A stretch of DNA of 33,059 nt from an uncultured Thermococci archaeon (GTDB lineage: Archaea; Methanobacteriota_B; Thermococci; Thermococcales; Thermococcaceae). The notes beneath the pieces were generated by a model. That model did no database searches. It saw only the letters and a list, made by a program, of their open reading frames with translations, and was not told the origin of the DNA. Both the position numbers and the translations under genes were made by a program. The stretch spans positions 1-33,059 of the forward strand of contig CAZTOS010000018.1 of NCBI GenBank assembly GCA_964615185.1, read 5' to 3'. Numbering within the stretch: position 1 is the stretch's first letter; every line of letters starts with the position of its first letter. Of the stretch, positions 3,306 to 32,378 are shown piece by piece.

Positions 3306-3315
3306 GGTGATAGTT

Positions 3316-4026: not shown

Positions 4027-4790
4027 GAAGGATTTTTGTACAAAATAGAGAGTTAGTGGTTCCAGGAACACTATTGGCACAGGGGCCGTTCAAGAACGGC
4101 AGAGGGACTTTCAAGGAAGGAAACAGAATTTATTCAACGGTTGTTGGTCTTGTGGACATAAGAAATGACTTCATAAGGGTCATCCCACTTGAAGGACCCT
4201 ACATCCCAGAAGTTGGAGATAATGTCATTGGAAAGATTGTTGATGTAAAATTCTCAAGCTGGACTGTAGACATTGGAGCGCCTTACCAAGCAACATTAAG
4301 AATACAGGATGCTGTTGAAGAAAAAATTGATTTGTTGAAAACAGATTTAAGGAAAATATTTGATATTGGGGACATAATCTACGCAAAAGTGAAAGCCTTC
4401 AATGAAGTGAATCAGATTGATTTAACAACAAAGGGAATGCCTTTTAACGGTGGCCCATTAAAGGGTGGACAGATTGTAAAAATAACCCCCTCTAAAGTGC
4501 CCCGTTTGATTGGTAAGGGCGGTTCTATGATAAATCTAATCAAAAAAATGACACAGACAAGGATTATTGTTGGACAAAACGGATGGGTGTGGGCCAGTGG
4601 AAGAAAAGAAGAGCTTGAGAGAGTGGCAATTGAGGCAATACTGAAGGTTGACAGAGAAAGTCATACACAAGGGCTAACTGATAGGGTAAAAGAACTGCTT
4701 TTGACAAGATTGAGGGAACTTAAGGAACAGGGAATTGTTGAGGAAATACCTCAAATAGAAGAGGGTGAAGGAAATGATGGGAAAGCCTGA
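4023..4790 (+). CDS. rrp4: Exosome RNA-binding cap subunit Rrp4
   Basis: [11 protein letters not shown] (S1), [11 protein letters not shown] (KH), IIVGQNG motifs. Confidence 0.98.
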
Positions 4791-5517
4791 GGATATAAAG
4801 CTTATTGATGAGAATGGAAGGAGAATTGATGGCAGAAAAAAGTATGAGCTCAGACCGATTAAAATGGAAGTTGGTGTTTTGAAAAATGCTGATGGTTCTG
4901 CTTATATAGAATGGGGTAAGAATAAAATTCTCGCTGCGGTGTATGGGCCAAGAGAAATTCATCCAAAACATTTGCAGAGACCAGATCGAGCAATATTAAG
5001 AGTTAGATACAACATGGCTCCCTTTAGTGTTGAAGAAAGAAAAAAGCCCGGACCAGACAGGAGAAGTGTTGAAATAAGCAAGGTCATTAGGGGAGCATTA
5101 GAACCGGCAATCATACTTGAATTATTCCCAAGAACTGCAATTGATGTGTTTATTGAGGTTCTTCAAGCAGATGCAGGAACGAGAGTTGCTGGAATTACTG
5201 CTGCCTCTTTGGCACTGGCGGATGCAGGAATTCCTATGAAAGATTTAGTCTCAGCATGTGCTGCTGGAAAGATCGAGGGGCAGATTGTTCTTGATCTGAA
5301 CAAGGAAGAGGACAACTATGGAGAAGCAGATGTTCCGGTTGCAATAATGCCAATAAAGAACGACATAACCCTTCTGCAGATGGATGGCTACTTGACAAAA
5401 GATGAGTTCCTTGAAGCCGTGAGATTAGCGATAAAGGGAGCAAAGGCAGTCTACCAGAAACAAAGGGAGGCATTGAAGGAGAAATACCTCAAAATAGCCC
5501 AAGAGGTAGGTGAGTAA
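4774..5517 (+). CDS. rrp41: Exosome catalytic subunit Rrp41
   Basis: RIDGR, ADGSAY, VYGPRE and QADAGTR RNase PH motifs; start at 4774 or 4777. Confidence 0.98.
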
Positions 5518-6331
5518 AATGGAAGTTATGGCTTCAATTATGAAAGACCACATCATTGAACTCCTCAAAGAGAAGAAGAGAATTGACGGGAGAGGTTTGG
5601 AGGATTTGAGGCCTCTTGAAGTGAAAGTAAATGTAATTGGAAAAGCTGAGGGTTCAGCATGGGTTAAACTTGGTGATACTCAGGTTCTTGTTGGAATTAA
5701 GCTTGATTTAGGTGAGCCTTTTCCAGACCTGCCTGATAAGGGTGTCATGACAACGAACGTTGAGCTCGTTCCATTGGCTTCACCAACCTTTGAGCCGGGT
5801 CCTCCAGATGAGAGGGCAATTGAGCTGGCAAGAGTTGTTGACAGAGGGATAAGGGAAAGCCAAGCAATTGACTTGGAAAAACTTGTCATTGTTCCAGGAA
5901 AGCTCGTCAGAGTGGTCTTCATTGACGTGCACGTCCTTGACCACGATGGAAACCTCATAGATGCCGCAGGAATTGGAGCAATTGCAGCTCTGCTTTCAAC
6001 AAAGATGCCAAAAATTGAATACAACGAAGAGACTGGCGAAGTTGTGATGCTTGATGAGTATGAGCCATTGCCCGTAACTAAGATTCCAATTCCAGTAAGC
6101 TTTGCTAAGATTGGGGGAACAATAGTTGTTGACCCAAATCTTGAAGAAGAGCAGGTAATGGATGGAAAATTAACAATAACAACAGATGAGAATGGTCACA
6201 TCTCAGCAGTGCAAAAGAGCGAAGGTGGAAGCTTCAAGCTTGAGGAAGTCATGTATGCAGTTGATGTCGCATTCAGAAGAGCCCAGGAGATTAGAGAGAA
6301 AATTCTTGAAGCTGTGGGGAAGAGGGAGTAG
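5510..6331 (+). CDS. rrp42: Exosome subunit Rrp42
   Basis: [28 protein letters not shown] motifs; overlaps rrp41. Confidence 0.98.
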
Positions 6332-13923: not shown

Positions 13924-15072
13924 ATGAAAATGGTAAGCTCGCACTTCAAACATATTCTCCTCAAGCTTGGGCTTGACAAAGAGAGAATAGAGATCTTAGA
14001 AATGAAAGGTGGCATAATTGAGGATGAATTTGAGGGTTTACGCTATCTTCGGTTTAAAGACTCAGCCAAAGGTTTGAGAAGAGGAACGGTTGTTTTTAAT
14101 GAATCTGACATTGTTCTTGGGTTTCCTCACATAAAGAGAATTGTTCATTTGAGAAATGGGATAAAGCGAATTTTTAAAAGCAAGCCATTCTATGTGGAGG
14201 AGAAAGTTGATGGCTACAATGTTAGAGTCGTAAAAGTTGGGGAGAAGATTTTAGCTTTAACAAGAGGTGGTTTTGTTTGTCCATTCACCACTGAAAGGAT
14301 TGAAGACTTCATAAACGAGCAGTTCTTTAGGGATTTCCCTGATTTAATTCTATGTGGAGAGATGGCAGGTCCAGAGAGTCCATATTTAGTCGAAGGTCCG
14401 CCATATGTTAAGGAGGATATTCAGTTTTTCCTCTTTGATATTCAAGAAAAGAGAACTGGAAGAAGTTTACCAGTTGAGGAAAGGATAAAGCTTGCTGAGG
14501 AGTATGGAATTAAGAGCGTTGAAGTCTTTGGAATTTACAGCTATGAGAAGCTTGATGAGCTTTACGAGTTGATTGAAGGACTTAGCAGAGAAAGGCGAGA
14601 AGGCATAGTCATGAAAAGCCCGGACATGAAGAAAATCGTGAAGTATGTAACGCCCTATGCAAATGTTAACGACATAAAGATTGGCTCAAGGGTTTTCTTT
14701 GATCTGCCTCACGGCTACTTCATGCAACGCATAAAGAGGTTGGCATTTTATATTGCAGAGAAGCGCATGAGGGGAGAGGACTTTGATGAGTATGCAAAAG
14801 CTCTTGGAAAAGCTTTGCTCCAGCCATTTGTGGAGTCAATATGGGACGTTGCGGCTGGAGAGATGATTGCTGAGATTTTCACGGTTAGGGTGAAGAGAAT
14901 TGAGACCGCTTATAAGATGGTATCCCATTTCGAGAGGATGGGGCTCAACATTCATATCGATGACATTGAGGAACTTGGCAATGGCTACTGGAAGATTACA
15001 TTCAAGAGGGTTTATGACGATGCGACAAAAGAGATTAGGGAGCTTTGGAATGGACACGCTTTTGTGGATTAA
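13924..15072 (+). CDS. ATP-dependent RNA ligase, Pab1020/Rnl3 family
   Basis: Motif I EEKVDGYN, TRGGFVCPFTT, LCGEM, FLFD, REGIVMK, IVKY; 382 aa. Confidence 0.96.
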   Translation: MKMVSSHFKHILLKLGLDKERIEILEMKGGIIEDEFEGLRYLRFKDSAKGLRRGTVVFNESDIVLGFPHIKRIVHLRNGIKRIFKSKPFYVEEKVDGYNVRVVKVGEKILALTRGGFVCPFTTERIEDFINEQFFRDFPDLILCGEMAGPESPYLVEGPPYVKEDIQFFLFDIQEKRTGRSLPVEERIKLAEEYGIKSVEVFGIYSYEKLDELYELIEGLSRERREGIVMKSPDMKKIVKYVTPYANVNDIKIGSRVFFDLPHGYFMQRIKRLAFYIAEKRMRGEDFDEYAKALGKALLQPFVESIWDVAAGEMIAEIFTVRVKRIETAYKMVSHFERMGLNIHIDDIEELGNGYWKITFKRVYDDATKEIRELWNGHAFVD

Positions 15073-15171
15073 GCGACGAAAGTGATAAATCACTGGAATG
15101 TGAGATTTTGTTGGGTAGACTATTCTTAAACATGGGGGAATATAATGTTTTTGTTCTTGCTTTTAAGAAGC

Positions 15172-15765
15172 CTAACCCTTCCCAACTTTCTCCACAAGCT
15201 CATCCAACACTTCTTTGAACTTGGCCGCATCCACCCATTTAATCCCCATCTTTTCAGCCCATGTTAAAATTCCAACATCAGCTGAAACTATTATTGCATC
15301 GAGCTCTTTAGCCAACAAAATCAGCTCAAAATCCTCTTTGCTGTCTACTATTCCTTCTCTTAGAGCCTTTCGGTAGTTTCTGCGGAGCTTTTGGATTATC
15401 TTATTAACGTTATCTGTATCGAGAACGCTCTCCCTAACAGCTTTCTCCGCAACTCTCAACCCTTTATCAATTCTCCTTCTAATGTCCTCAATCAGCTCAT
15501 AGACTACAAAAGCCGGGATTTTAATATCGTGAACATTTGGAGGCTTCTTTATTATGTAAAGCTCAACATCGGGAGAAACTTCGCTCTCTTCAACAAAGTG
15601 CATAATCTCTCTATAAATTCCGGGAGACATGTAAAACTCAACCTTACCAAACAGCTTTTCAGCGTATTCTAAAAACTTCTTCATAGCTTCAGTTGGTGTT
15701 TTGCCAAATTTTGCCCTGACATCTGGATTGACGAAAATGCTGGTATCAAGGACAAAGCGAATCAT
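15172..15765 (-). CDS. HARP, RNA-free ribonuclease P (PIN-like; 'RNA ligase partner' family)
   Basis: FVLDTS, RIDKGLRVAE, YRKALREGIVDSKEDFELILLA, SAD motifs. Confidence 0.95.
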   Translation of the reverse strand: MIRFVLDTSIFVNPDVRAKFGKTPTEAMKKFLEYAEKLFGKVEFYMSPGIYREIMHFVEESEVSPDVELYIIKKPPNVHDIKIPAFVVYELIEDIRRRIDKGLRVAEKAVRESVLDTDNVNKIIQKLRRNYRKALREGIVDSKEDFELILLAKELDAIIVSADVGILTWAEKMGIKWVDAAKFKEVLDELVEKVGKG

Positions 15766-15818
15766 TGCAACCACAAGTTTATTTAGTTCTTTTTGGTTTA
15801 AAATCCTTAGGTGATAAA

Positions 15819-17027
15819 ATGAAAGTTGGAGTTGTCTTTGGGGTTAGCGAAATCGCAGATCCAAAAAAGTTTGAGAAAAAAGCGTCGCAGTTTTTAACAA
15901 GACTTTCTGAGGAGTTTGAAGTTGTTGGTGGGGCATTTATTTCGACAAAAAAAGAGTTCAAAGACCTTAAGGAGGAAATAGACTTCAATAAGGTTGATGC
16001 AATTGTTTTATACCCATTAACCGGTGGAACTGAGAATCCTCTGAAGGAGTTTGCAATCTACAGAAAGCCGGTGATTCTCTTTGGTGATCCTTTCAACAAC
16101 TCAATAGCAGCTGCCGTGGAGATTAGAGAATACCTTAGGGACAGGCTTATACCTTCAACACTGGTTACAAGTTATGAAGAGCTTAAAGCAGCCCTTCTTG
16201 GCCATGAGGACATGAAGGAAGTACTCAATAAGTTCCTAAACTTGAGACTCGGTTTGATTGGTAGAATCTCTCCATGGCTCATTAATGAGAAGTTTGAGCT
16301 GCCTTATGTCCATATAAGCTTGAAGAAGTTTTATGAATACTATGAATCTGTAACTGAGGCAGAAGGATGGAAAGTTGTTGAGAACATTGTTGCAAAAGCG
16401 AGAGAAATTAGAGAGCCCAACAGGGAAGACCTTGTAAAGGCTGGCAGAATTTATGTTGCACTGAGGAGAATTGTTGAAGATTACAGACTTGATGGCTTCA
16501 CAATAGGCTGCTTTGATTTAATTGGGAAGATTAAAGCAACACCATGCTTGGCATTAGCGTTATTTAACGCAGAGGGAATCCCAGCGGCTTGCGAAGGAGA
16601 GCTAAACTCGCTCCTTGCGATGGCAATAATTAGAAGATTTTTCAATAAACCTGCTTTCATGGGAAACATAGCTGACTACGGCGATGACTACATAATCTTA
16701 GCCCACTGTACGGCTCCTCTGATTGCGGGCTATATTCTAAGATCTCACTTTGAGAGTGGCATGGGAGTTGGCGTAGAGGTGGATTTGCCCAAGAAAAAAG
16801 CTTCTCTCCTTAAGATAAGAGGAAGAAAAGCTGTTGTGACCAGTGTTATGGTAGCTGAAAGAGAAAGAAGCGAGCAGAGATGCAGAACTCAGCTTAAGCT
16901 CAAGATTGAAGATGCTAAAGACTTTGTGGATGGCACATTAGGAAATCATCATCTTTTGGTCTATGTGGACAGCGAAGAGCTGGCAGATCTGTTAAGTGAG
17001 CTTGGCTTTGAGGTCATGTTATATTGA
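15819..17027 (+). CDS. L-fucose/L-arabinose isomerase-like protein
   Basis: TPCLA, ACEGE, LAHCTAP, CRTQL, LGNH motifs; ATG 15819 after AGGTGA. Confidence 0.8.
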   Translation: MKVGVVFGVSEIADPKKFEKKASQFLTRLSEEFEVVGGAFISTKKEFKDLKEEIDFNKVDAIVLYPLTGGTENPLKEFAIYRKPVILFGDPFNNSIAAAVEIREYLRDRLIPSTLVTSYEELKAALLGHEDMKEVLNKFLNLRLGLIGRISPWLINEKFELPYVHISLKKFYEYYESVTEAEGWKVVENIVAKAREIREPNREDLVKAGRIYVALRRIVEDYRLDGFTIGCFDLIGKIKATPCLALALFNAEGIPAACEGELNSLLAMAIIRRFFNKPAFMGNIADYGDDYIILAHCTAPLIAGYILRSHFESGMGVGVEVDLPKKKASLLKIRGRKAVVTSVMVAERERSEQRCRTQLKLKIEDAKDFVDGTLGNHHLLVYVDSEELADLLSELGFEVMLY

Positions 17028-17031
17028 CGTT

Positions 17032-17217
17032 TTATTTTTCAAATATTTTTGCCAGAAACCCTTTTATCTTTGAAATAATCGGTTCATATTCGCTGTTCTC
17101 AGAAACAACATTTTGTTGATATTCCTTTGCCCATAACTCGGCGTCTTTCCTCTTCATTTCATAACGTGATGTTGGATCTTTTATTGCCCCACTTATGCTG
17201 GGACTCAGGGATACCAC
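17032..17217 (-). CDS. Small hypothetical protein
   Basis: 61 aa ORF filling an otherwise empty gap, with protein-like composition and an amphipathic C-terminus; start codon uncertain. Confidence 0.5.
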   Translation of the reverse strand: MVSLSPSISGAIKDPTSRYEMKRKDAELWAKEYQQNVVSENSEYEPIISKIKGFLAKIFEK

Positions 17218-17322
17218 CAGAGTTTATTACCCTCACATTACTTAAAACTCTATGCTCTATAGCCAATGAGAGAGCATACAAAACTTCAGAAGCTTCACTC
17301 AAAATATTAAGAAAAAGAAAGG

Positions 17323-19614
17323 TCAAGATTTTCTGGCATATATCATAATACCAATAATTGAAATCACAACCAATGCTACTGGGATTGGATGTAATGTTGC
17401 TCCAGCAAGTGCTAAGGCACCAAGTATAACTCTTATCTCCTTTCTTAATGGTTTCTTGTAATAACCTATAATCGCCATTGCCAAGAGATACATTATGAGT
17501 ATTGTTGCTATGAAGTAATAGAGTATCCTAAGTGCAACTCCCGGAGTCCAGTGCTGAACTGTAATGAGGAACATCTCTGGATGAGTGAAATATATGTATG
17601 GTCCGATATAACCAGCTAAAGCATATTTTACCGAGTTAGTTGCTGTCTTCCAGAAGTCTCCTCCAGCCAATGCTGAACCTGCATATGCTGCCAACGCAAC
17701 TGGGGGTGTCAAGTCTGCAAGTATACCAAAGTAGAACACGAAGAAGTGAGCAGCAAGAAGGGCTATTGGTGTTGTATAACCTGGAACTGATGCAGAATAA
17801 ACTGGATTGCTTGCTACAGCGTTAAAGACTGCTGGGGCTGCTACTAATGATGTAATGACATAGTTTGCAGTTGTCGGCACACCCATACCAAGAATGAGGC
17901 TGAATATCATTGCCATCATTAAGAGCAACAGCAGATGTCCTCCAGCCAAGTCAACAAGCTTGTATCCAAGGGACGTAACCAGTCCGGTCATTGTTAGGAC
18001 ACCTTGGATTAAACCCGCACTTGCTGCAGCGAGCATAACCGTTGTGCTTGTTTTACCAGCGCTTATCATAGATTCGTAAGTTGCTGAATACATTGCCTTA
18101 CCGCCTTCTGTCTTGGATATGTAGCCGACTATCAAAGAGAAAATTATTCCAAAGATACCGCTCATTAAGAGGATTTCCTCTTTCCTCATGTAAAGGAGCT
18201 TTCCAAGTGCCACAAGGAAGATAAATAGAATGCTTATGTAAAACTTTTCATTGAACTGCACCTTTTCTGTTGCAAATGCCATAGCAATTAAAGCCAATCC
18301 AAGAATTAGGAGAATAATTCCAACAGGTTTTGCAATTTCTTTACCTGTAAACATTAAGAGGGTCGTAATGAGAACTGTTGCCACATAAAGTGGTTCATGT
18401 CCTGGAATTTCATCTTTTGAAACCCATGCAACCCAGATTGCAATACCTAATGAGGAAACTGCTGCAATGTGTGGTGCAATACCCCATACCAACGCAACGG
18501 TAATCACAATAATTGGTAGCAGTATGTAGAGCTTCCTTAGGAAGTATCTAATGGGCTTAAACTGCTCTCTTGGCATTCCCTTTAAACCTAAGCGCTTGGT
18601 TTCAAGGTCAATGAATAAATAGACACCTGAATAGTAAATCAACGCTGGCAACACTGCTGCAATGATAAGCTTGTTATATGGAATCCCAAGAAACTGGGCC
18701 ATAATGAACGCAGCAGCTCCCATTACTGGTGGCATCAGCTGTCCTCCTGTTGAAGCCACAGGCTCGACAGCACCGGCTATCTCCGGTGGATAACCAGCTT
18801 TTTTCATCAGCGGGATTGTAAAGGTTCCTGTTGTTAAAACATTGGCAACTGAACTTCCACTTACTGTTCCCATTAGACCACTTGAAATAACTGCTGACTT
18901 TGCTGGACCACCTGGTCTTGGTCCAAAGATGGATATCATGAACTCTGTAATATAGTCGCTAACTCCAATTTTCAGCAGGAATGCACCAAAGAACACGAAC
19001 GCAAAGACGTAAATTGTCATAACGTAAAATGGGATACCGAAAATACCTTGATCAAGGTAAAGATACTGGGCTATACGGGTCCAGTTATAGCCTGCATCCC
19101 TTATACCATATAAAATGAACACAGCGACGATTGTTGGCAGAATCCATCCTATTGCTCTTCTTGTGGCTTCTAAGACCAAGATTATGGCGAGGAAACCAAA
19201 TATAACATCAGTCTGGTTAACATCATAGTAGACCATGTAAGTTGGCCATCGCCAGAACTTGTACAGTGCGGCTGCTAATCCGAGGAGTATTAGGATGTAA
19301 TCTATCAACTGCACTTTTTTGAGGTACTTGTCCTTCTTCATTATTGGGTATCTAAGGAATGCTATAACGAATATCATACCCAAGACGAATGCCATCACTT
19401 GCTGATCTTGGAAGTCAAACTTCAGTATCCCAATTCTTATACCCAATTTGTCAAAGAGGGAATATACCGTAAAAGTAAAGTTGAATATAAATAGAATTTC
19501 AAAGATACCAATGAGTATTGCTGCTGCCTTTACTATATTCTCCAGTTTTGGGGAGAGCGTTCTTGTTTTTTCAATCACTATCTTCTTTTCGATTTTTTCA
19601 AGGTTTTCTCCCAT
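17323..19614 (-). CDS. TAXI-type TRAP transporter fused permease (4TM/12TM)
   Basis: GSSVANV, ASTGGQLMPPVMGAAAF, LGMGVPTTANY, DLTPPVALAAYA motifs; ATG 19614 after GGAGGTG. Confidence 0.96.
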   Translation of the reverse strand: MGENLEKIEKKIVIEKTRTLSPKLENIVKAAAILIGIFEILFIFNFTFTVYSLFDKLGIRIGILKFDFQDQQVMAFVLGMIFVIAFLRYPIMKKDKYLKKVQLIDYILILLGLAAALYKFWRWPTYMVYYDVNQTDVIFGFLAIILVLEATRRAIGWILPTIVAVFILYGIRDAGYNWTRIAQYLYLDQGIFGIPFYVMTIYVFAFVFFGAFLLKIGVSDYITEFMISIFGPRPGGPAKSAVISSGLMGTVSGSSVANVLTTGTFTIPLMKKAGYPPEIAGAVEPVASTGGQLMPPVMGAAAFIMAQFLGIPYNKLIIAAVLPALIYYSGVYLFIDLETKRLGLKGMPREQFKPIRYFLRKLYILLPIIVITVALVWGIAPHIAAVSSLGIAIWVAWVSKDEIPGHEPLYVATVLITTLLMFTGKEIAKPVGIILLILGLALIAMAFATEKVQFNEKFYISILFIFLVALGKLLYMRKEEILLMSGIFGIIFSLIVGYISKTEGGKAMYSATYESMISAGKTSTTVMLAAASAGLIQGVLTMTGLVTSLGYKLVDLAGGHLLLLLMMAMIFSLILGMGVPTTANYVITSLVAAPAVFNAVASNPVYSASVPGYTTPIALLAAHFFVFYFGILADLTPPVALAAYAGSALAGGDFWKTATNSVKYALAGYIGPYIYFTHPEMFLITVQHWTPGVALRILYYFIATILIMYLLAMAIIGYYKKPLRKEIRVILGALALAGATLHPIPVALVVISIIGIMIYARKS

Positions 19615-19616
19615 AA

Positions 19617-20063
19617 CTAACACCTCCTGCTTATTATCAATAGAATGGGGGCTTTCTTAACCTCAATTTTCATGATTCCTTCTTCTTTAGGTTGAACAAA
19701 CACAACTTTTTCATCAATTTTTACGGTGACATTGTTAATTGGAATGAACCAATATTCCCATGATTTTCCAAGAAATGTGTTTAAGTTCTTTACATAGAAT
19801 TTACCTGCTCTATAATCGAAGTTTGTAGGTTGCCCTGCAAGGAATTCCTGCCATTTTTCTTGAAAAGCATAAATGCCATCTTTTGAAACTCGATATATGT
19901 CTATAACTTTAGTTAATGAAACGCTATGAGTGTAATCAATCTCAAGGGTAGAATTTGAGCCAAGGGGATAATAACACACATTTTCATTGAATCCTATTCT
20001 AATTGCAGATACGGGAAAAAACAATACAATGAGAAGCAAGAAAAAAAGAAAAGATTTGTTCAA
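19617..20063 (-). CDS. DUF1850 family protein
   Basis: YTHSV motif, N-terminal hydrophobic segment, usual position between TAXI receptor and permease; TTG start with GGGGTGA RBS. Confidence 0.85.
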   Translation of the reverse strand: MNKSFLFFLLLIVLFFPVSAIRIGFNENVCYYPLGSNSTLEIDYTHSVSLTKVIDIYRVSKDGIYAFQEKWQEFLAGQPTNFDYRAGKFYVKNLNTFLGKSWEYWFIPINNVTVKIDEKVVFVQPKEEGIMKIEVKKAPILLIISRRC

Positions 20064-20077
20064 AAAATTTCACCCCT

Positions 20078-21124
20078 TCATTCCTTGGGCTTTAACTTAT
20101 CTGGAACAGTTATGCCATGGTCTTCATAGTACTTGATTGCTCCTGGGTGGAGTGGTATCATCAGACCATCAAATGCGTGGTTTATGTCAATCTGCTTTGC
20201 TACCTGGTGGGCTTTAGCCAGTTCATCAATGTTCTCATAGAGAATCTTGGTAATCTCGTAAACGACTTCATCCGGAACGTCTTTGTGAACAACAAGGGTG
20301 GACTTAACAGCTATTGTTTGTGTATCTTCGGTCATTCCTTTATATGTTCCCTTTGGAATAATTACTTTAACATAGAATGGATATCCCTGGTCATGGAGTT
20401 TCTTTATAACATCATCTGGAACTGGAATTAATCTGACTGGGACTTTGACTGCAATTTGATTAATTGCTGGTGCTGGGTAAGCAATAACTGTGAACTCTGC
20501 ATCAACCTGTCCGAGAACTAAGCTCTGTGCTGCCTCTTCGAAAGTCTGATAAATTGGCTCGATTTTGTCCCAGACTCCAGCGGCCTTAAGAACTCTCTCA
20601 GCTGTTGCAGCACATCCACTTCCAGCGGCACCAACGACAACCTTCTTACCAGCTAAGTCTTGGAGGGTCTTAATGTCACTGTCAGCTCTTACGACAATTT
20701 GAATTGGCTCTGGATAAAGGGTACCAATACCTCTAAGAACTTTAATTGGTTTGCCTTCAAACTGATACTTCCCTTCCCAGGCGTACCAGGTTACGTCGTT
20801 CTGTATAATTGCTACTTGGGCTTCACCTTTTGCAATAGCCTTGGCGTTAGCAACACTTGCACCGCTTGTAACTGCTTTAGCTGCAATTAACTTGCTCTTC
20901 TTGTTTGTAACTTTTGCAAGCATGGAACCGATGGCAAAATAGACGCTACCGGGTCCAGAACCGGTATAAATGGTAATTTCATACTTTCCTTCTTCGTTCT
21001 TCTGTACAATACCGGTGCTGGTTGGAGTTGCAGTGCTGGTTGTGGTTGTTTTTTGAGTACATCCAGCAGCGACCAAAGCCAATACCAAAACAAAAACCAA
21101 ACCAAGGGCTTTCCACTTTCTCAT
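20078..21124 (-). CDS. TAXI family TRAP solute-binding lipoprotein
   Basis: LVAAGC lipobox, Thr-rich linker, TSGASVAN, LYPEPIQIVVR, IPLHPGAIKYY. Confidence 0.96.
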   Translation of the reverse strand: MRKWKALGLVFVLVLALVAAGCTQKTTTTSTATPTSTGIVQKNEEGKYEITIYTGSGPGSVYFAIGSMLAKVTNKKSKLIAAKAVTSGASVANAKAIAKGEAQVAIIQNDVTWYAWEGKYQFEGKPIKVLRGIGTLYPEPIQIVVRADSDIKTLQDLAGKKVVVGAAGSGCAATAERVLKAAGVWDKIEPIYQTFEEAAQSLVLGQVDAEFTVIAYPAPAINQIAVKVPVRLIPVPDDVIKKLHDQGYPFYVKVIIPKGTYKGMTEDTQTIAVKSTLVVHKDVPDEVVYEITKILYENIDELAKAHQVAKQIDINHAFDGLMIPLHPGAIKYYEDHGITVPDKLKPKE

Positions 21125-21190
21125 TTTTATTCACCTCATGTAAGGAGGGGACTATGTCCCCAACATCTTAAATATTTACAAACTTAAACA

Positions 21191-21234
21191 TTATATATTT
21201 TTTGTTTTTTTTGGAAGATTTACATGCAAGTAAA
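21191..21234 (-). promoter_or_regulatory. TAXI promoter (TATA) with upstream palindrome TTTAC-N6-GTAAA
   Basis: Minus strand reads AAATATATAA at 21200-21191; TTTACATGCAAGTAAA at 21219-21234. Confidence 0.6.
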
Positions 21235-21264
21235 CGAAGGAAAGGGTAGAGAGGCGAAAATTTT

Positions 21265-23184
21265 TCAGTAGTAATACCAGATTGTCCAGTAGTCATTGGG
21301 GTCTTCTCCTATGCTCTCAAGGTACTCAAGGTACTCTTTGATTGGTACATCTGGATATGTATAGAGTTTGGTTTCGCTGATACCCTTCTCCCATGGATGC
21401 ATAAGATAGATTCTGCTTCCATCTGGTCTGATTCCAACTAATTCTCTGTCCTGCCATGCTCTCAGATGATTCTTACCCATTCTTGGGACATTGAAGATGG
21501 GTTCGTCTGTTCTGAATATTCCGGGGAGTAATCTTGCTTCCTCTTTTCTCTCCTGAACAACCCTTGCAATTGGCACGAGATAGTCTTTCTGCTCAATTTT
21601 GCCCTTTGGATAGAACGTGTAGTATGGATCGATACCAACTTTCTTCAATGCGATTCTTAGTGCAACGTTTTCAAACCTTCTGCTAACATTTCTCTGGTAA
21701 ACAAGCTGGTTATAGAGGTAAATCCCTTGTCTCCTTAGTTTATACACTGCATCCCCCATCTCAGGGGTGACTTCATAGGCGGTCTCAACATGTGTTACAA
21801 CATGGACGTTTCTCCTTCCTGGCTCAATATAACTTCCAAGAATTTCCGCTAACTCGTCAGTGATTCTCATTGGAACTGTGACAGGTATTCTACTGCCCCA
21901 TCTGATGTTAACAACATGATCAAGTTCTGAAAGCTTACTCATTATCTTATCGATTATCTTGTCACTTAGAGCTAAGGGATCTCCACCGGTAATTAGGACG
22001 TCAAGCATTGATTCATGTTCCCCAAACCACTCTATTGCTGCTTCAATCTTGTCCCATCCTGGGAATGCGCCTGCCATGAATGGCTCAAGAACTTCCCAGT
22101 TTCTCTGACAGTAGACACATATCTGTGGGCATGTATCGTAAGCTTTGAGAATCGCTATCGTAACATACCTTCTTGTAATAAGGTCAAGTGGTGATGTGTC
22201 GTGCTCACCCATGAAGTCGAAGTAATATTCCCGGTCTTCCCTGTGCTGGAGCATGTTTGAAACATACCATGCAGGTGGCATTACTTGTCTTCTTACATGC
22301 CTGTCTTCTTTATATGGGTTCTCAAAGTCCCAGAGGTGTAGATAGTATGGAGTTATACCCCAAGGTATGCTGTATTTTACAGCAATTTCTACTTGTTTTA
22401 GGTCTTCTTCTGGAACTTTTACTATTCCAAGCTCATTTAGCTCTCTAAGTGTTTCAAGGCCTTTTTCCCTCTTTAGCACGTGGGAGAACTGCCATCTATA
22501 GTCGAACCACTCGTCTTCGGTTATACCCCAGTATTCCATAAGTTTTTCTCTCTGCTTCTTTCTCTTTTCGATAATATGCTTGTCAAGACCGCTTGGATAC
22601 TTTTTGAGGTATCCTTTGATGTATTCCCACACCTTGTCGAGGTATTCAGACCTCATGAGGGCAGCTTTTCTTCCTTTAATTTTGCTGAAATCAACGAACT
22701 TAGCTCCAGCAGCTTCAAGCTTTGGCCCAAGCCATCCTTTTGAATATCCACTCACTCCGGCCATAGCTTTGAAGAGATGCTTAAACTCCTCCACAAATCC
22801 TTCTGTGATTATGCTTAGAACCCTTTTATCACCTTTTGTAGCCTTCCAGAGGTATTCAAGGGTTGAGAATCCAGCGGCTTTTTCACCATATTCGGAGATT
22901 ATGTTTAGGAATACATTGATAACTTCAATTGCGAGCCATCTATCAATAGCATCAACCTTGAATTCACCGTCCTTGTACTTCCACAACAAATCTTCTGCAA
23001 ATTTACTGAGCTTGTCTCTTGCCTCATCAAGTGTTTCGCTGGTGAGCAGGATTTCTTTAATTTCAGGGAGAGGTTCAAAAATTTTCAAAAAATCTTCATA
23101 GTTAATTCCCTGCTTTAAACCCCAAGGGGATTCTTCAACATTAAATGTGGAAATTGCACTTTCCATTTGTTTTTCCATATCCAT
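21265..23184 (-). CDS. KamA-family radical SAM/PLP aminomutase, long form (probable glutamate rather than lysine 2,3-aminomutase)
   Basis: TRRY...CPQICVYC (CxxxCxxC), DVLITGGDPL, IRWGSRIPV, YNQ, PYY, and PRMGK (putative PLP lysine). The family call is firm; the substrate is inferred. Confidence 0.9.
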   Translation of the reverse strand: MDMEKQMESAISTFNVEESPWGLKQGINYEDFLKIFEPLPEIKEILLTSETLDEARDKLSKFAEDLLWKYKDGEFKVDAIDRWLAIEVINVFLNIISEYGEKAAGFSTLEYLWKATKGDKRVLSIITEGFVEEFKHLFKAMAGVSGYSKGWLGPKLEAAGAKFVDFSKIKGRKAALMRSEYLDKVWEYIKGYLKKYPSGLDKHIIEKRKKQREKLMEYWGITEDEWFDYRWQFSHVLKREKGLETLRELNELGIVKVPEEDLKQVEIAVKYSIPWGITPYYLHLWDFENPYKEDRHVRRQVMPPAWYVSNMLQHREDREYYFDFMGEHDTSPLDLITRRYVTIAILKAYDTCPQICVYCQRNWEVLEPFMAGAFPGWDKIEAAIEWFGEHESMLDVLITGGDPLALSDKIIDKIMSKLSELDHVVNIRWGSRIPVTVPMRITDELAEILGSYIEPGRRNVHVVTHVETAYEVTPEMGDAVYKLRRQGIYLYNQLVYQRNVSRRFENVALRIALKKVGIDPYYTFYPKGKIEQKDYLVPIARVVQERKEEARLLPGIFRTDEPIFNVPRMGKNHLRAWQDRELVGIRPDGSRIYLMHPWEKGISETKLYTYPDVPIKEYLEYLESIGEDPNDYWTIWYYY

Positions 23185-23284
23185 CACCTCATGCCCATAT
23201 ATGGGCGTTGATGCCCCTCAGGTCATCATTGCACATATTCCATCATTGGAGCGATTTTACAGATATTAGTGAATATGTGTGGTG

Positions 23285-23314
23285 TTATATATTTTGCGTT
23301 TACAAGCTTGTAAA
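23285..23314 (-). promoter_or_regulatory. Aminomutase promoter (TATA) with adjacent perfect 16-bp palindrome
   Basis: Minus strand AAATATATAA at 23294-23285; TTTACAAGCTTGTAAA at 23299-23314. Confidence 0.65.
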
Positions 23315-24350: not shown

Positions 24351-24482
24351 CTAAACAAAACCTTTAAAGACTTGCACTTTCAAATTTAAGAATTAGCTGT
24401 GCAATCTTAGCTAAAATTTATATATTGCTTTAAACTACAGAATTTACCAGATGTTAAATTGTTTCCCTGGGAGGGTGAAAAG

Positions 24483-25604
24483 ATGCTAAAGTTAATTGAA
24501 AATGCGATAGAAAGAACATCTCAAGAACCTGAAAAAGTAAATGAAGTGCAAGTTCCTCAAACCGATGTTGATGAAGAGCTTAAGAGAATCCTTGAGCAAA
24601 TACAGGCAAAAATCTATGTTGTTGGCGTCGGTGGTGCCGGTTGTAATACAGTTAACAGGATGATGGAAGTTGGTATTCAGGGTGCTAAAGTTATTGCAGT
24701 TAACACAGATGCTCAAGATTTGCTTAAGGTTAGAGCTCATGAAAAGATACTCATTGGTAAGGATTTGACAGGAGGATTAGGTGCTGGGAATAACCCAAAG
24801 ATTGGTGAAGAAGCAGCGAAAGAAAGTGAGAAAGATATCAGAGATGCTCTTGAAGGGGCGGACATGGTTTTCATTACCTGCGGTCTGGGTGGAGGTACTG
24901 GAACGGGTGCGGCTCCAATTGTTGCTGAACTGGCAAAGAAGATGGGTGCCTTAACGGTTTCTGTCGTTACACTTCCATTCACAGTTGAAGGGATCAGGAG
25001 AATCAAAAATGCAGAATATGGTCTTGAAAGACTTAGGAAAAACAGTGATACCGTTATTGTTATACCAAACGACAAGCTCATGGAAGTTGCTCCAAACTTG
25101 CCAATTCACTTGGCATTCAAAGTTGCTGATGAGATACTTGTTCAGGCAGTTAAGGGAATTACGGAACTGATAACGAAGCCTGGCTTAGTTAACCTCGATT
25201 TTGCTGATGTTAGAGCCGTCATGAAAGACGGCGGTGTTGCTATGATAGGCATCGGTGAGAGCGATAGTGAAAAGAGAGCACTTGAAGCTGCAACCCAAGC
25301 TTTAAACAGTCCATTGCTTGATGTTGACATCAGTGGTGCTAAGGGAGCATTAATAAGCATTGCTGGAAGTGATGTGAAGCTTGAGGAAGCACAGCAGGTA
25401 ATTGAGCTTGTTACAAGTAAGCTTGACCCAGAAGCTCAGGTAATCTGGGGAATCCAGCTTGATGAGGAACTCGGTAAGACAATCAGGGTCATGGTCGTAG
25501 TTACTGGTGTAAGTTCTCCATATGCAGTTGTTGAAGAGGAAACGACGTATCTCCCGGAAGAAGGTGAGAAAAAGATAATCCATCTTGATTTAGAGGAACT
25601 TTGA
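24483..25604 (+). CDS. ftsZ: Cell division protein FtsZ (FtsZ1-type context)
   Basis: [30 protein letters not shown] 24483 after GGAGGGTGA. Confidence 0.99.
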
Positions 25605-25689
25605 TCACCTCTTTTTTACCCCAAACTTTTAAAACCCAAACCCATACCTAAGATTAGCAAAGATTTAAAAAGCCATTGAGGTGTTAGAT

Positions 25690-25881
25690 GTGCCAGCAGG
25701 GGGATACATGGAAAAACTTAAAAACTTCTTATCAGAGTCCAAGAGGGTTTTGCTGGTTACAAAAAAACCAAGCGGCAAAGAGTATAAAATGGCCGCAAAG
25801 ATTACTGGCCTTGGAATACTCCTTATTGGTTTAATAGGCATGATTATTCGTATTATAGGCATCTTAATAACAGGTCAATGA
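25690..25881 (+). CDS. secE: Protein translocase subunit SecE/Sec61-gamma
   Basis: [12 protein letters not shown] plus one transmembrane helix; start either GTG 25690 (RBS GAGGTG) or ATG 25708. Confidence 0.95.
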
Positions 25882-25897
25882 CCTCTTGGTGATAAAG

Positions 25898-26356
25898 ATG
25901 AGTGACAGCAAAATCTTCGCAGTAAGGGTTACAGTAGGACAGGAAGAAACGACAGCACGGTTAGTGTACAGTAAGGCAAGGACATATAACTTGCCAATTT
26001 ATGCTATATTAACTCCTTCCAAAGTTAAGGGATACATTTTTATTGAAGCACCAAGCAAGAGTGCAGTTGATGAAGCCATAAGAGGAATAAGACATGCAAG
26101 AGGAACCCTTCCAGGGGAGATTTCATTCAGTGAGATTGAGCACTTCCTTGAGGAGAAGCCAGCTGTCAGTGGCTTTGAGCCTGGAGACATAGTTGAACTC
26201 ATTGCCGGTCCATTTAAAGGCGAAAAGGCCAAGGTCGTTAGAGTTGATGAGGCAAAAGATGAAATTGTCGTTGAACTCATCGGAGCAATAGTTCCAATCC
26301 CCGTTACAGTTAGAGGGGAATACGTTAGACTTATAAGCAAACGGTCAAAGGAGTAG
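25898..26356 (+). CDS. spt5: Transcription elongation factor Spt5/NusG
   Basis: KGYIFIEA (NGN domain) and [13 protein letters not shown] (KOW domain). Confidence 0.98.
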
Positions 26357-26369
26357 AGGGGTGAAGAGA

Positions 26370-26864
26370 ATGCCAAAGCAAGTTGTTGAGGTTTTAGTTG
26401 AGGGTGGTAAAGCTACTCCCGGTCCTCCACTTGGTCCAGCTATTGGTCCACTTGGATTAAACGTTAAGCTTGTTGTTGACAAAATAAACGAAGCAACAAA
26501 GGATTTTGCGGGAATGCAGGTGCCAGTGAAGATTATCGTTGACCCAGCAACAAAGCAGTTTGAGATTGAAGTAGGTACACCGCCAGTTAGCCAGCTCATC
26601 AAGAAGGAGCTTGGGCTTGAAAAGGGTTCAAGCGAACCAGTAAGAAACATTGTTGGTAACTTAACAATGGAGCAAGTCATAAAGATAGCAAAGGCTAAAA
26701 AGCACCAAATGCTTGCTGCTGGCCTTAAAGCAGCCGCAAAGGAAGTCATTGGAACAGCTTTAAGCATGGGGGTTACAGTTGAAGGCAAAGACCCAAGGGT
26801 TGTGCAGAAAGAAATTGATGAAGGAGTTTACGACGAGATATTTGCAAAGGCTGAGGAGAGCTGA
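26370..26864 (+). CDS. rpl11: 50S ribosomal protein L11
   Basis: [18 protein letters not shown] motif. Confidence 0.99.
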
Positions 26865-26870
26865 TTTAGG

Positions 26871-26883
26871 GAAAAGTTTAAAA
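26871..26883 (+). promoter_or_regulatory. BRE/TATA promoter of the rpl1-rplP0-rpl12 operon
   Basis: GAAAAG-TTTAAAA in the rpl11-rpl1 gap. Confidence 0.6.
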
Positions 26884-26950
26884 GCTCCTCTTTTTACGAA
26901 ATTTTGATTTTTCAATTTAGCTTAAATAAAAAAGATTGGAGGTCAGAAAA

Positions 26951-27604
26951 ATGGCCTTTGACAGGCAAAAAATCGTGGAAGCGGTGAAGGAGGCAAAGGC
27001 CCGGGCTAAGCCGCGTAACTTCACACAGACCGTCGAAGTGGCAGTAAACCTCAAGGATATAGACCTTAGAAAGCCTGAAAACAGGTTTAAGCTTGAGGTT
27101 GTTCTGCCGCACGGTCGGGGGAAGGAGCCCAAAATCGCGGTCATCGCTGATGGTGCCGTTGCTGAGGCGGCTAAAAAGCTCGGGCTTGATGTTATTAGTG
27201 GTGAGCAGCTTGAGGAAATAGCTAAGAGCCCAAGGGAAGCGAGAAAGTTGGCTAAGAAGTATGACTTCTTCATTGCCGCAGCACCACTGATGCCAAAGAT
27301 TGGTAGATACTTGGGTAGGTACTTAGGTCCAAGAAACAAGATGCCAGTGGTTGTTCCACCAACAATGACAAACTTAGAGCCAATTGTCAACAAGCTCAAG
27401 AAGACAGTAAGAATACAGCTTAAAAACAATCCAGTCGTCCACGCTCCGGTAGGAACAGAGACCATGGAGGATAAAAAGATTGCAGAGAATATAGAAACAG
27501 TTCTCAATGCAATCATTGGTAAGCTTGAGAGAGGAGAGAACCAAGTCAAGTCAGTGTACGTTAAGACAACAATGGGTCCAGCTGTAAAGGTGGAGGTGAG
27601 ATAA
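26951..27604 (+). CDS. rpl1: 50S ribosomal protein L1
   Basis: [26 protein letters not shown]. Confidence 0.99.
26984..27024 (+). promoter_or_regulatory. L1 autoregulatory binding site within rpl1 mRNA
   Basis: GTGAAG-GA-GGC...GCC-GCGTAA-CTTCAC: two stems around an asymmetric loop about 30 nt into rpl1, like the Methanococcales L1 mRNA site. Confidence 0.8.
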
Positions 27605-28623
27605 TGGCTCATGTCGCTGAATGGAAGAAGAAGGAAGTGGAAAGACTCGCTGAGATTATCAAAAGCCACCCAGTGGTAGCGTTGGTTGACGTTGCTGGAG
27701 TGCCAGCTTATCCCCTCTCAAAGATGAGAGAAAAGCTCAGAGGAAAAGCATTGCTTAGAGTCTCAAGAAACACACTCATAGAACTTGCAATCAAGAAGGC
27801 AGCAAAAGAGCTCGGAAAACCGGAGCTGGAGAAGTTAGTTGACTACATTCAGGGTGGAGCTGCAATCCTCGCAACTGAAATGAACCCATTCAAGCTCTAC
27901 AAGCTCCTTGAAGAGAGCAAGACTCCAGCTCCTGCCAAGCCCGGCGTCCCAGTTCCGAGAGATGTTGTTGTTCCAGCTGGTCCAACTCCACTATCACCAG
28001 GTCCAGTTGTCGGTGAGATGCAGGCTTTAGGAATTCCAGCCAGGATTGAGAGAGGTAAAGTCACGATCCAAAAGGACACGGTTGTTTTAAAGGCTGGAGA
28101 GATTATTACCCCACAATTGGCAAACATCCTTAACAAACTTGGCATTGAGCCTCTTGAAGTCGGACTTAACCTGTTGGCAGCTTACGAGGATGGAATCATT
28201 TACACACCAGAAGTTCTTGCAATTGATGAGGAAGAATACATAAACATGCTCCAACAGGCTTACATGCATGCATTCAACCTGTCAGTCAACATAGCATATC
28301 CAACAGCCCAGACAATCGAGGCAATCATCCAGAAAGCATTCCTCAACGCAAAGAGCGTTGCTGTGGAGGCTGGATATATCACAAAAGAAACTGCTGGAGA
28401 CATATTTGGCAAGGCGTTCAGGGTTGCTCTGCTCATAGCACAGCAGTTGCCAGAGGAGTTGCTTGATGAGAAGACCAAAGAGCTTTTAAATCAACAAGCT
28501 CAATTAGCAGTTGCCGCTCAACCTCAGCCAGAAGAGGAGAAAGTTGAAGAGGTTGAGGAGGAAGAAGAGGAGGAAGCATCTGAGGAAGAAGCCCTCGCTG
28601 GGTTGGGGGCATTGTTTGGTTGA
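27604..28623 (+). CDS. rplP0: 50S ribosomal protein L10/P0
   Basis: VAEWKK, SRNTL, acidic hinge, [12 protein letters not shown] tail. Confidence 0.99.
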
Positions 28624-30340: not shown

Positions 30341-30416
<76 letters not shown>

Positions 30417-31103: not shown

Positions 31104-32378
31104 ATGCATGAAATAGCAGTTCGTATGACAAAAAGGAATCATAATGCGTTTGTTCATCTTCTTGGCGCATTGGAGGCTCAAGGATTTGATATTAGTGAGC
31201 TTTTAATAACCAAGGACTTTAATGAGATCCTTAAAGTCAAACCTAAAGTTGTTCTATACTCATTCTTCACTGAGGAAATCTGGGAAGTTGAGAAAGAGGT
31301 TAAAATCCTAAGAGAGAAATTTAATCCTCTCTTAGTTGCTGGTGGTTATCATGCCACTGCAATGCCAAAGCACACTTTGAATGTTTTGGGCTTTGATATT
31401 GCTGTAATTGGAGAGGGGGAAGAGGTTATCTATCAGCTTCTGACAACCCTAAAACGAACCAAATTTAAAATTACAAAGGAGCTATTGTCTATTCGCGGTC
31501 TGGCGTTCTATTTGAATAGAGAATTTGTGTTTACGGGCTTTGCTAAAGTTGATGACTTTGCTAAATTTCCTCCTTTTGCAGAGAGTTCTCTTTTAATTGC
31601 ACCCATTGAGATAACAAGAGGCTGTCCTTTTGGTTGCTACTACTGCCAGACACCTTACGTCAAAGGTTTTCGCATGAGGCACAGGCCGATAGATCAGATT
31701 GTGAAGTATTCAAGAAGAATGAAGGATATGCGTTACATCACTCCAAACGCCTTTGCCTACGGAAGTCCAGGAGCAATTTTAAAACTTGATAAACTTGAAG
31801 CCCTCCTAAAAGCTTTACAACCGTTAAGAAAAGAAGGGCGGCGCTTGTTTTACGGAACGTTTCCGAGTGAAGTGAGACCAGAATTTGTAAAACCCGAGAC
31901 TCTTGAGCTTCTCATCAAATATGCAGATAACAGGAGACTCGCCATTGGAGCACAGAGCGGAGATGATGCCATGCTTAAGGCTATGCACCGTTTACATACA
32001 GTTTGCCATGTGAAGGAAGCCGTTGAATATATGGTTGAATACGGTATTGAGCCGGTTGTCGATTTCATTGTCGGCTTGCCAAATGAAAGCGAAGAGAGCC
32101 AAAGAAAAAGCATTGAACTAATGAAGTGGATTATGCGTAAGGGTGGAAAAGTTAGAGCGCACTATTTCATGCCCCTACCAGGAACTCCTTGGGCTAAGTG
32201 TAAGCCTTCACCATTAAGCGAGGAGATGAAAAAATTTTTGGGCAGGATGGCCGCTAAAGGCTACATTGAAGGAGCATGGGGCATTCAGATGCAGCTTTCC
32301 AAAAAATTGCAAAGATTGATTGAGGAGTTTTATGAAGAACCTATGAGTTACGTTGGAGATATTGAGGAGGTTTGCTGA
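31104..32378 (+). CDS. B12-binding domain/radical SAM protein
   Basis: VAGGYHAT, IGEGE, TRGCPFGCYYC, FPSEVRPE, FMPLPGTP. Confidence 0.93.
   Translation: MHEIAVRMTKRNHNAFVHLLGALEAQGFDISELLITKDFNEILKVKPKVVLYSFFTEEIWEVEKEVKILREKFNPLLVAGGYHATAMPKHTLNVLGFDIAVIGEGEEVIYQLLTTLKRTKFKITKELLSIRGLAFYLNREFVFTGFAKVDDFAKFPPFAESSLLIAPIEITRGCPFGCYYCQTPYVKGFRMRHRPIDQIVKYSRRMKDMRYITPNAFAYGSPGAILKLDKLEALLKALQPLRKEGRRLFYGTFPSEVRPEFVKPETLELLIKYADNRRLAIGAQSGDDAMLKAMHRLHTVCHVKEAVEYMVEYGIEPVVDFIVGLPNESEESQRKSIELMKWIMRKGGKVRAHYFMPLPGTPWAKCKPSPLSEEMKKFLGRMAAKGYIEGAWGIQMQLSKKLQRLIEEFYEEPMSYVGDIEEVC

What the first reader, a model, noticed from the sequence alone, without database searches (positions are those of the whole stretch)
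17323..23184. Candidate glutamate-import / beta-glutamate synthesis module: TAXI-TRAP transporter plus aminomutase
Seen: four co-oriented genes (aminomutase, TAXI lipoprotein, DUF1850, fused permease) with shared promoter motifs; no acetyltransferase (AblB), 5,6-aminomutase or lysine-fermentation genes in the window. Established: several characterised TAXI receptors bind glutamate or related acids, and beta-glutamate is a compatible solute in marine methanogens and some thermophiles. Inference: a co-regulated unit that imports glutamate (or beta-glutamate) and interconverts the alpha and beta forms for osmotic, thermal or pressure protection, or for catabolism. I do not know of this being described in Thermococcales.
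Basis: partly seen in the sequence, partly recalled or inferred. Interest (0 to 1): 0.8.

Follow-up and report, generated by a model that had tools for sequence, protein, structure and literature searches.

The report
Likely beta-glutamate scavenging cassette in Thermococcus
A deep-sea-vent archaeon carries four linked genes, an importer with its own remodelled binding protein and an enzyme predicted to interconvert glutamate and beta-glutamate, that likely let it take up beta-glutamate (a salt-protective solute made by methanogens) and use it as food rather than make it for its own protection.

Summary
The four co-oriented genes are real. The 640-aa radical-SAM aminomutase is a long form: Lys528/Asn566 replace the two lysine-binding aspartates in 189 of 189 long sequences. 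It groups with Methanococcus long forms, recalled as glutamate 2,3-aminomutase.

The TAXI receptor belongs to a derived clade with a remodelled ligand loop. In 97 Thermococcaceae genomes it lies directly behind the aminomutase in 20 of 20 cases; 55 genomes carry another receptor clade, at the same locus in 12 of 14 checked. Two Atribacterota share the four-gene order. Elsewhere this clade often sits beside class-III aminotransferases, an amine dehydrogenase or CoA-transferase/thiolase, which points to a beta-amino-acid ligand that is degraded.

T. barophilus MP has the aminomutase and receptor genes, yet published NMR over 27 stress conditions reports only mannosylglycerate as stress solute. 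That argues against the osmolyte reading. Best explanation (0.5): beta-glutamate uptake, isomerisation, then GDH/KGOR catabolism. Ligand and direction are untested.

The shared palindrome is real but also precedes receptors lacking the aminomutase. Both parts are known families; my searches found no paper on the pairing. The scan noted this cassette before on other DNA.

The parts
21265..23187 (-). Long-form KamA-family radical-SAM/PLP aminomutase, likely glutamate 2,3-aminomutase (C353/C357/C360; R362; K528; N566; PLP-lysine position K572; about 170-aa N-terminal extension; likely start 23178)
   Evidence: 64% to MJ0634, 46% to M. maripaludis C5 long forms, 35% over 281 aa to AblA
20078..21124 (-). 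TAXI solute-binding lipoprotein of a derived clade (clade A) with a one-residue insertion in the side-chain-carboxylate loop; keeps Y62, S90, Q108, E139
19617..20063 (-). DUF1850 protein with one N-terminal hydrophobic segment; present between receptor and permease in both receptor clades; role unknown
17323..19623 (-). Fused TRAP permease (DctQM type)
   Evidence: at least 14 hydrophobic segments by a crude scan
23299..23314 (.). Palindrome TTTAC-N6-GTAAA 4 bp upstream of the aminomutase TATA-like box (23285-23294, minus strand); candidate operator
21219..21234 (.). Palindrome TTTAC-N6-GTAAA 18 bp upstream of the receptor's own TATA-like box (21191-21200, minus strand); internal promoter

Best explanation
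The cassette likely scavenges beta-glutamate: the membrane-anchored TAXI receptor is predicted to capture it, the fused permease would import it with an ion gradient, and the aminomutase, likely a glutamate 2,3-aminomutase, would turn it into L-glutamate for the cell's glutamate dehydrogenase and 2-oxoacid:ferredoxin oxidoreductase route. Shown: genes, families, active-site residues, linkage, RNA cover in a relative, GDH and KOR homologues in the genome. Inferred: enzyme substrate (about 0.85), receptor ligand (about 0.5), direction (about 0.6). The cassette occupies the usual Thermococcales TAXI slot next to dtd-ftsZ, where most species carry a different receptor clade without the enzyme.
For: (1) Enzyme: K528 aligns with D293 of C. 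subterminale lysine aminomutase 2A5H. N566 matches the D of the xVDAPGGGGK motif; I mapped this by eye, as MAFFT offset the block. K/N in 189 of 189 distinct long sequences; D/D in the short AblA types. Best specific NCBIfam model is glutamate 2,3-aminomutase, and it matches from residue 173, 50 residues earlier than AblA. One long-form clade with SH-aLRT 100 holds the window protein and the Methanococcus and Methanothermococcus long forms. (2) Linkage: 20 of 20 clade-A receptors lie 122-169 bp behind the enzyme; clades A and B never share a genome (0 of 97). Same four-gene order in 2 Atribacterota, receptor 78-79% identical. (3) Receptor: keeps the VcGluP amino/alpha-carboxyl residues Y45, S75, Q93, E125, but the loop that binds the side-chain carboxyl is changed (S56, P58, S60 in 49 of 49 clade A, 0 of 71 clade B). 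(4) Partners: of 15 metagenome clade-A loci with upstream DNA and no aminomutase, 7 have a HemL-like class-III aminotransferase (6 with an NrpR-like regulator, 3 with divergent GDH), 1 an Ord-like amine dehydrogenase, 1 a class-III aminotransferase + 3-oxoacid CoA-transferase + thiolase. These would remove a non-alpha amino group. (5) In 4 of 4 extended Atribacterota loci the aminomutase-TAXI block is followed by KorAB, acetate kinase, Nfn and GDH. (6) No stress solute other than mannosylglycerate reported for T. barophilus MP. (7) In 3 of 4 RNA runs (one study) one contig covers the aminomutase to past the permease and stops about 60 nt upstream of the start (weak, contigs only).
Against: No ligand or activity was measured. 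The receptor still has the core residues of alpha-glutamate binders, and its closest structures are glutamate binders. 15 of 27 informative metagenome clade-A loci lack the aminomutase, and 6 of those 15 show no obvious beta-deaminating partner. The enzyme often stands without this transporter: 5 Thermococcus copies of a second clade, 32 of 34 Atribacterota genomes, 31 of 35 non-Thermococcales loci without any TAXI gene in the flank, and Methanococcales. The TAXI receptor beside most Atribacterota copies lacks the Q93 and E125 equivalents (15 of 15). The aminomutase equilibrium favours the beta form (recalled, not checked), so an active enzyme should build up beta-glutamate; the NMR paper never names beta-glutamate (0 occurrences), so it was not explicitly excluded. 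Kin genomes are not independent.
Confidence: 0.5

Rival explanations
1. One reading: the transporter imports L-glutamate and the aminomutase makes beta-glutamate, which the cell keeps as an inert compatible solute under salt, heat or pressure stress.
For: The long form is tied to beta-glutamate and salt tolerance in methanogens (title seen in reference lists; content recalled). Methanothermococcus and M. jannaschii carry long forms, and beta-glutamate is an osmolyte in Methanothermococcus and Methanotorris (PMC1224877 passages). The receptor keeps Y45/S75/Q93/E125. The equilibrium favours the beta form (recalled).
Against: T. barophilus MP has the genes but reported solutes are MG, aspartate and glutamate only, with no shift in MG-less mutants. 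Clade-A partners elsewhere are catabolic or nitrogen-regulated. An alpha-glutamate importer would not need the remodelled loop.
Confidence: 0.2
2. The receptor and enzyme handle a related but different compound: a broader set of beta-amino acids (beta-glutamine, beta-lysine derivatives, 3-aminobutyrate), or 2-aminoadipate or glutamine as enzyme substrate.
For: The aminotransferase beside clade A in L199 scores over the cut-off for PRK06917, which I recall as the B. subtilis YodT family linked to beta-lysine breakdown. Long forms in Pyrodictiaceae and DHVE2 lie next to homocitrate/aconitase/isohomocitrate-type genes. The window enzyme is only 46% identical to the Methanococcus forms.
Against: The pocket residues are invariant from Methanococcus to Thermococcus, which argues for one substrate; Lys/Asn suits an acidic side chain; AblB was not found in the genome.
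Confidence: 0.15
3. The linkage is positional: the aminomutase inserted into the promoter region of an ordinary amino-acid TAXI locus and is inherited with it; the two parts work independently.
For: The TAXI locus, its position next to dtd-ftsZ and its palindrome exist without the enzyme (12 of 14 and 13 of 14 clade-B loci). The receptor has its own promoter. A second Thermococcus aminomutase clade is unlinked.
Against: The receptor allele changes exactly with the enzyme's presence at this locus. The same order recurs in a bacterial phylum, and other TAXI clades sit next to long forms in Atribacterota (15 of 28 other loci) and Desulfurococcales (L079, L083).
Confidence: 0.15

Closest known systems
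Glutamate 2,3-aminomutase of methanogenic archaea (Tunckanat et al. 2022, Biochemistry 61:1077, doi 10.1021/acs.biochem.2c00014; only the title seen; details recalled: M. maripaludis C7 long form with N-terminal extension)
   Same: Long architecture, K/N pocket, same clade as the M. maripaludis C5 and M. vannielii 594-aa proteins (46% and 44%).
   Different: Here it is joined to a TAXI-TRAP importer in a peptide-fermenting non-methanogen with no reported beta-glutamate pool. The C7 protein itself was not retrieved or compared.
Clostridial glutamate 2,3-aminomutase Eam (TIGR04368; Ruzicka & Frey 2007, cited; not read)
   Same: Best specific model; shares an N-terminal stretch that AblA lacks.
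   Different: Score 196 against cut-off 650; about 230 aa longer.
Lysine 2,3-aminomutase KamA/AblA (2A5H; TIGR03820)
   Same: CX3CX2C, carboxylate Arg and PLP Lys positions.
   Different: Side-chain aspartates replaced by Lys/Asn; score 148 against cut-off 525; no AblB found.
Glutamate-binding TAXI receptors TtGluBP (1US4/8U79) and VcGluP (8S4J; PMC11574862, sections 4, 17, 22 and part 1 of 25 read)
   Same: Same fold (TM-score 0.77-0.78, 33-38% identity); Y45, S75, Q93, E125 kept.
   Different: Insertion and Pro in the S40-V44 loop; Y46>F, H123>Y, D157>C, Y200>T, M201>V, G203>A; DUF1850 gene in the operon.
Common Thermococcales TAXI locus (clade B, e.g. T. kodakarensis, T. litoralis)
   Same: Same genomic slot, same three transporter genes, same palindrome.
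   Different: Receptor 54-62% identical, canonical loop, no aminomutase at the locus; ligand also unknown.

Membership tests
Archaeal long-form glutamate 2,3-aminomutase | Radical-SAM CX3CX2C, carboxylate Arg and PLP Lys | tested here: met
   C353/C357/C360, R362, K572
Archaeal long-form glutamate 2,3-aminomutase | Lys/Asn in place of D293/D330 (signature recalled; no paper on it could be read) | tested here: met
   K528 by HMMER alignment to 2A5H; N566 mapped by motif; 189 of 189
Archaeal long-form glutamate 2,3-aminomutase | N-terminal extension and orthology to Methanococcus long forms | tested here: met
   46% over 608 aa to M. maripaludis C5 protein, one clade in a quick tree; the characterised C7 protein was not itself compared
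Archaeal long-form glutamate 2,3-aminomutase | Converts L-glutamate to beta-glutamate | not testable with these tools
   needs an enzyme assay
Clostridial Eam (TIGR04368) | Score above the curated cut-off of 650 | tested here: not met
   195.7 bits
Lysine 2,3-aminomutase AblA/KamA | Cut-off 525 and two aspartates for the epsilon-amino group | tested here: not met
   147.8 bits; K/N instead of D/D
TAXI-TRAP transporter | TAXI receptor plus single fused permease | tested here: met
   TIGR02122 and TIGR02123 over cut-off; fold matches TAXI structures
L-glutamate-specific TAXI (VcGluP/TtGluBP type) | Binding-site residues as in VcGluP | tested here: inconclusive
   Y45, S75, Q93, E125 kept; side-chain-carboxyl loop, Y200 and M201 changed
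L-glutamate-specific TAXI (VcGluP/TtGluBP type) | High-affinity binding of L-glutamate | not testable with these tools
   needs DSF, ITC or native MS
Compatible-solute synthesis operon (abl type) | Product accumulates with salt or stress | tested here: inconclusive
   Literature only: none reported for T. barophilus MP, but beta-glutamate is not named in that paper

The most novel reading that the evidence does not exclude
Clade A is the first beta-amino-acid-specific TAXI receptor and marks an undescribed beta-glutamate economy at vents and in anoxic sediments. Methanogens release their osmolyte. Thermococcales and Atribacterota recover it through the aminomutase run in reverse, while Archaeoglobi and some bacteria recover it through beta-transamination to 3-oxoglutarate and on to acetoacetate/acetyl-CoA, a catabolic route with no described enzymes.
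Probability: 0.35. Interest if true: 0.78.

Novelty: new variant of a known kind. Interest (0 to 1): 0.58.

Why it matters
Beta-glutamate is described as a metabolically static osmolyte (PMC1224877), and my searches turned up no paper on who consumes it. This cassette names a candidate importer and two alternative entry routes. It can be tested directly in T. barophilus MP (TERMP_00188 and the adjacent receptor), where deletion mutants are made. It would give a TAXI receptor with a new ligand class, a catabolic role for an enzyme known as biosynthetic in archaea, and a natural experiment: two receptor alleles at one locus, with and without the enzyme. Many proteins annotated 'lysine 2,3-aminomutase' in Thermococcales would be mis-annotated.

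Tried and rejected
Papers not held: Tunckanat 2022, an id I recalled for Ruzicka & Frey 2007, Lamosa 1998 on Thermococcus solutes. The K/N signature, the C7 details, the equilibrium position and the YodT link are therefore recalled.

Literature searches without a description of the pairing: (0 papers; the comma-free phrase may have missed). Subscription journals and supplements were not seen; T. barophilus transcriptome supplements could bear on regulation.

The sigma-70 scan is irrelevant for an archaeon and at chance level. The palindrome does not define a clear regulon: 10 exact sites in the genome, 5 in repeated IS-like sequence; one-mismatch intergenic counts 36 against 23-45 for other spacers.

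DUF1850: single-sequence model poor (pLDDT 59), no fold match above Z 4.0. The complex prediction with the permease gave no verdict.

No curated short Eam was found in 121 genomes of the phylum of G250 for a direct signature alignment. Genomes behind the metagenome loci are not held, so whether Archaeoglobi with clade A have the aminomutase elsewhere was not tested. No clade-A loop among 150 best 50% representatives. No full-length long form on plasmids. The careful KamA tree did not finish; the quick tree is used. Receptor and permease trees are FastTree, unrooted, so no donor or order of events is claimed.

Rejected: lysine fermentation or N-acetyl-beta-lysine synthesis (pocket, cut-offs, no AblB); EF-P beta-lysylation (EpmB 108 against cut-off 369).
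Full report
OBSERVATION. The window (G000:C18) is from a Thermococcus-type archaeon. Four minus-strand genes lie between an isomerase-like gene and the divergent dtd-ftsZ pair: a 640-aa KamA-family protein, a TAXI receptor, DUF1850 and a fused TRAP permease. All are single-copy. AblB was not found with working controls; the lysine 5,6-aminomutase search was inconclusive. The palindrome TTTAC-N6-GTAAA occurs twice in the window, against 0.05 expected, each time upstream of the same TATA-like box.

THE ENZYME. It passes only the subfamily model TIGR00238. Among specific models, glutamate 2,3-aminomutase scores best (196, cut-off 650), ahead of AblA (148, cut-off 525). Against the solved lysine aminomutase 2A5H, the cysteine triad and carboxylate arginine are kept and D293 is replaced by K528. 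The second aspartate corresponds to N566 by motif; I mapped this by eye. C353, C357, C360, R362, K528, N566 and K572 are invariant in 189 of 189 distinct long sequences, while short AblA-type proteins keep D/D. The protein is 64% identical to MJ0634 and 44-47% to 594-600-aa proteins of M. maripaludis C5, M. vannielii and Methanothermococcus; all fall in one long-form clade (quick tree). [quoted passage not shown] I saw only its title. That it is this long form, and that Lys/Asn is the glutamate signature, is recalled. An older review says early NMR ruled out an aminomutase route and proposes another path in M. jannaschii (PMC1224877, passages). I put the enzyme assignment at about 0.85.

LINKAGE. 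Of 97 Thermococcaceae genomes, 78 had a receptor match: 20 at 77-100% identity (clade A), 55 at 54-62% (clade B), 1 broken and 2 spurious. The long aminomutase was in 25 genomes, 26 copies. All 20 clade-A receptors lie 122-169 bp behind it, and no genome has both clades. Five copies form a second clade (77-79%) elsewhere in the genome, four of them in clade-B genomes; one copy is cut by a contig end. Clade B occupies the same slot next to dtd (12 of 14 loci fetched) with the same three transporter genes and, in 13 of 14, the same palindrome within one mismatch. So the motif is a property of the TAXI locus, and the two forms are alternative alleles. These genomes are kin, so the counts are not independent events.

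Outside Thermococcales, the identical four-gene order occurs in 2 Atribacterota (enzyme 59-60%, receptor 78-79%), though 34 of 86 genomes there have the enzyme. In 15 of the other 28 loci fetched it is followed by a different TAXI clade lacking the Q93 and E125 equivalents. Two Desulfurococcales loci have a divergent TAXI unit; 31 of 35 non-Thermococcales loci show none in the flank, some cut short.

THE RECEPTOR. The model matches glutamate-binding TAXI structures best (TM-score 0.78). Mapping VcGluP residues (PMC11574862 section 22) through the alignment: Y45, S75, Q93 and E125, which hold the amino and alpha-carboxyl groups, are kept. The S40-V44 loop, which contacts the side-chain carboxyl, carries an insertion and a proline; Y200, M201 and G203 are changed. 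S56, P58 and S60 are in 49 of 49 clade-A and 0 of 71 clade-B proteins; clade B keeps the canonical loop. An amino dicarboxylate with shifted geometry fits, but this is inference. The same paper says Y200 matters little and that known TAXI ligands are diverse.

PARTNERS OF CLADE A. Of 34 metagenome loci, 12 have the aminomutase upstream, 7 are too short to tell and 15 lack it. Of the 15, seven carry a HemL-like class-III aminotransferase (below or barely at HemL cut-offs; close homologues named from Archaeoglobales), six of these with an NrpR-like regulator and three with a divergent GDH. One has an Ord-like amine dehydrogenase. One has a class-III aminotransferase, a 3-oxoacid CoA-transferase and a thiolase. 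Six show no such partner. A homologous aminotransferase (43-46%), CoA-transferase-like genes and a thiolase flank the long aminomutase in two Anaerolineae loci. In 4 of 4 extended Atribacterota loci, the block is followed by GntR, KorAB, acetate kinase, Nfn and GDH. One compound that needs either an aminomutase or a non-alpha deamination explains all three settings; beta-glutamate is the simplest candidate.

DIRECTION. T. barophilus MP encodes the enzyme (TERMP_00188, 93%) and the adjacent receptor. Cario et al. 2016 (PMC4932500; parts 1-2 of 5 and passages read) tested 27 salt, heat and pressure conditions by NMR. Mannosylglycerate was the only responsive solute, glutamate stayed near 0.14 umol/mg, and MG-less mutants did not switch to other solutes. 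The paper never names beta-glutamate, so this is evidence, not proof. It also sits uneasily with any constantly active aminomutase, because I recall the equilibrium favouring the beta form. RNA contigs from one study of a roughly 97%-identical organism, laid on L103, cover all four genes in one piece in 3 of 4 runs, end about 60 nt upstream of the start codon and are separate from the dtd contig. The tool warns that contigs do not prove a single transcript. The genome has GDH and two KOR gene sets; glutamate catabolism through them is established for Thermococcales (own knowledge).

MECHANISM. Most likely: receptor captures beta-glutamate (inferred), permease imports it with an ion gradient (family knowledge), aminomutase gives L-glutamate (likely), GDH and KOR degrade it or it enters the glutamate pool (family knowledge). 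Probability 0.5. Rivals: osmolyte synthesis 0.2, another beta-amino acid or substrate 0.15, positional linkage 0.15.

NOVELTY. Both parts are members of known families. The pairing, the derived receptor clade and the catabolic reading were not found in searches, which miss most subscription journals. The scan's own notes describe this cassette in two other archaeal genomes and similar pairings in bacteria; these are unchecked AI notes and add no independent support. Verdict: new variant of a known kind, interest 0.58.

Noticed in passing
L184:2492-4841 (also L187-L190, L193, L194): Archaeoglobi-type operon: HemL-like class-III aminotransferase + NrpR-like regulator + clade-A TAXI, with GDH divergent in three loci; candidate beta-glutamate transaminase.
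   Followed up: partly
L087:4620-15632 and L089:74-5894; L199:910-4792: Class-III aminotransferase, CoA-transferase and thiolase flank the long aminomutase in two Anaerolineae and a clade-A TAXI in L199; possible glutamate fermentation through beta-glutamate and 3-oxoglutarate.
   Followed up: partly
L211-L220, L255-L258: Atribacterota block RpiR-aminomutase-TAXI-GntR-ferredoxin-KorABG-AckA-Nfn-GDH; its TAXI receptor lacks the Gln and Glu that bind the amino group in VcGluP.
   Followed up: partly
L072, L078, L080, L081, L062, L064: Long aminomutase next to homocitrate-synthase/aconitase/isohomocitrate-dehydrogenase-type genes in Pyrodictiaceae and DHVE2; may supply glutamate or 2-aminoadipate.
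   Followed up: no
L098-L102: Second Thermococcus aminomutase clade (77-79%) between a proline-dehydrogenase-like FAD oxidoreductase cluster and pyrH; G022 has both clades.
   Followed up: partly
window 15765-17027: Uncharacterised fucose/arabinose-isomerase-like gene (weak sulfoquinovose isomerase hit) convergent with the permease, conserved beside both receptor clades.
   Followed up: no
G000:C4:6935, C17:22321, C69:5478: Other intergenic exact palindromes lie before a peptide ABC binding protein, a sugar ABC binding protein near a GH38 mannosylglycerate-hydrolase-like gene and inositol-dehydrogenase-like genes, and an Lrp/AsnC regulator.
   Followed up: partly
L266-L282: 17 of 121 genomes in the phylum of G250 carry the long aminomutase with the K/N pocket; no TAXI hit was seen in the 1.5-kb flanks shown (output partly cut).
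   Followed up: partly
P0479, P0481, P0482, P0493: TAXI proteins with three or four tandem receptor domains (1063-2478 aa).
   Followed up: no
window 17028-17322: 295-bp gap between isomerase-like gene and permease with sequence also seen in RNA contig ends of the relative; no Rfam match.
   Followed up: partly
window 2523-6331, 13924-15774, 24459-28623, 30341-30413, 31104-32378: Housekeeping context: proteasome alpha/SBDS/exosome genes, RNA ligase and its PIN partner, ftsZ and ribosomal genes, one tRNA, a B12-binding radical SAM protein.
   Followed up: no
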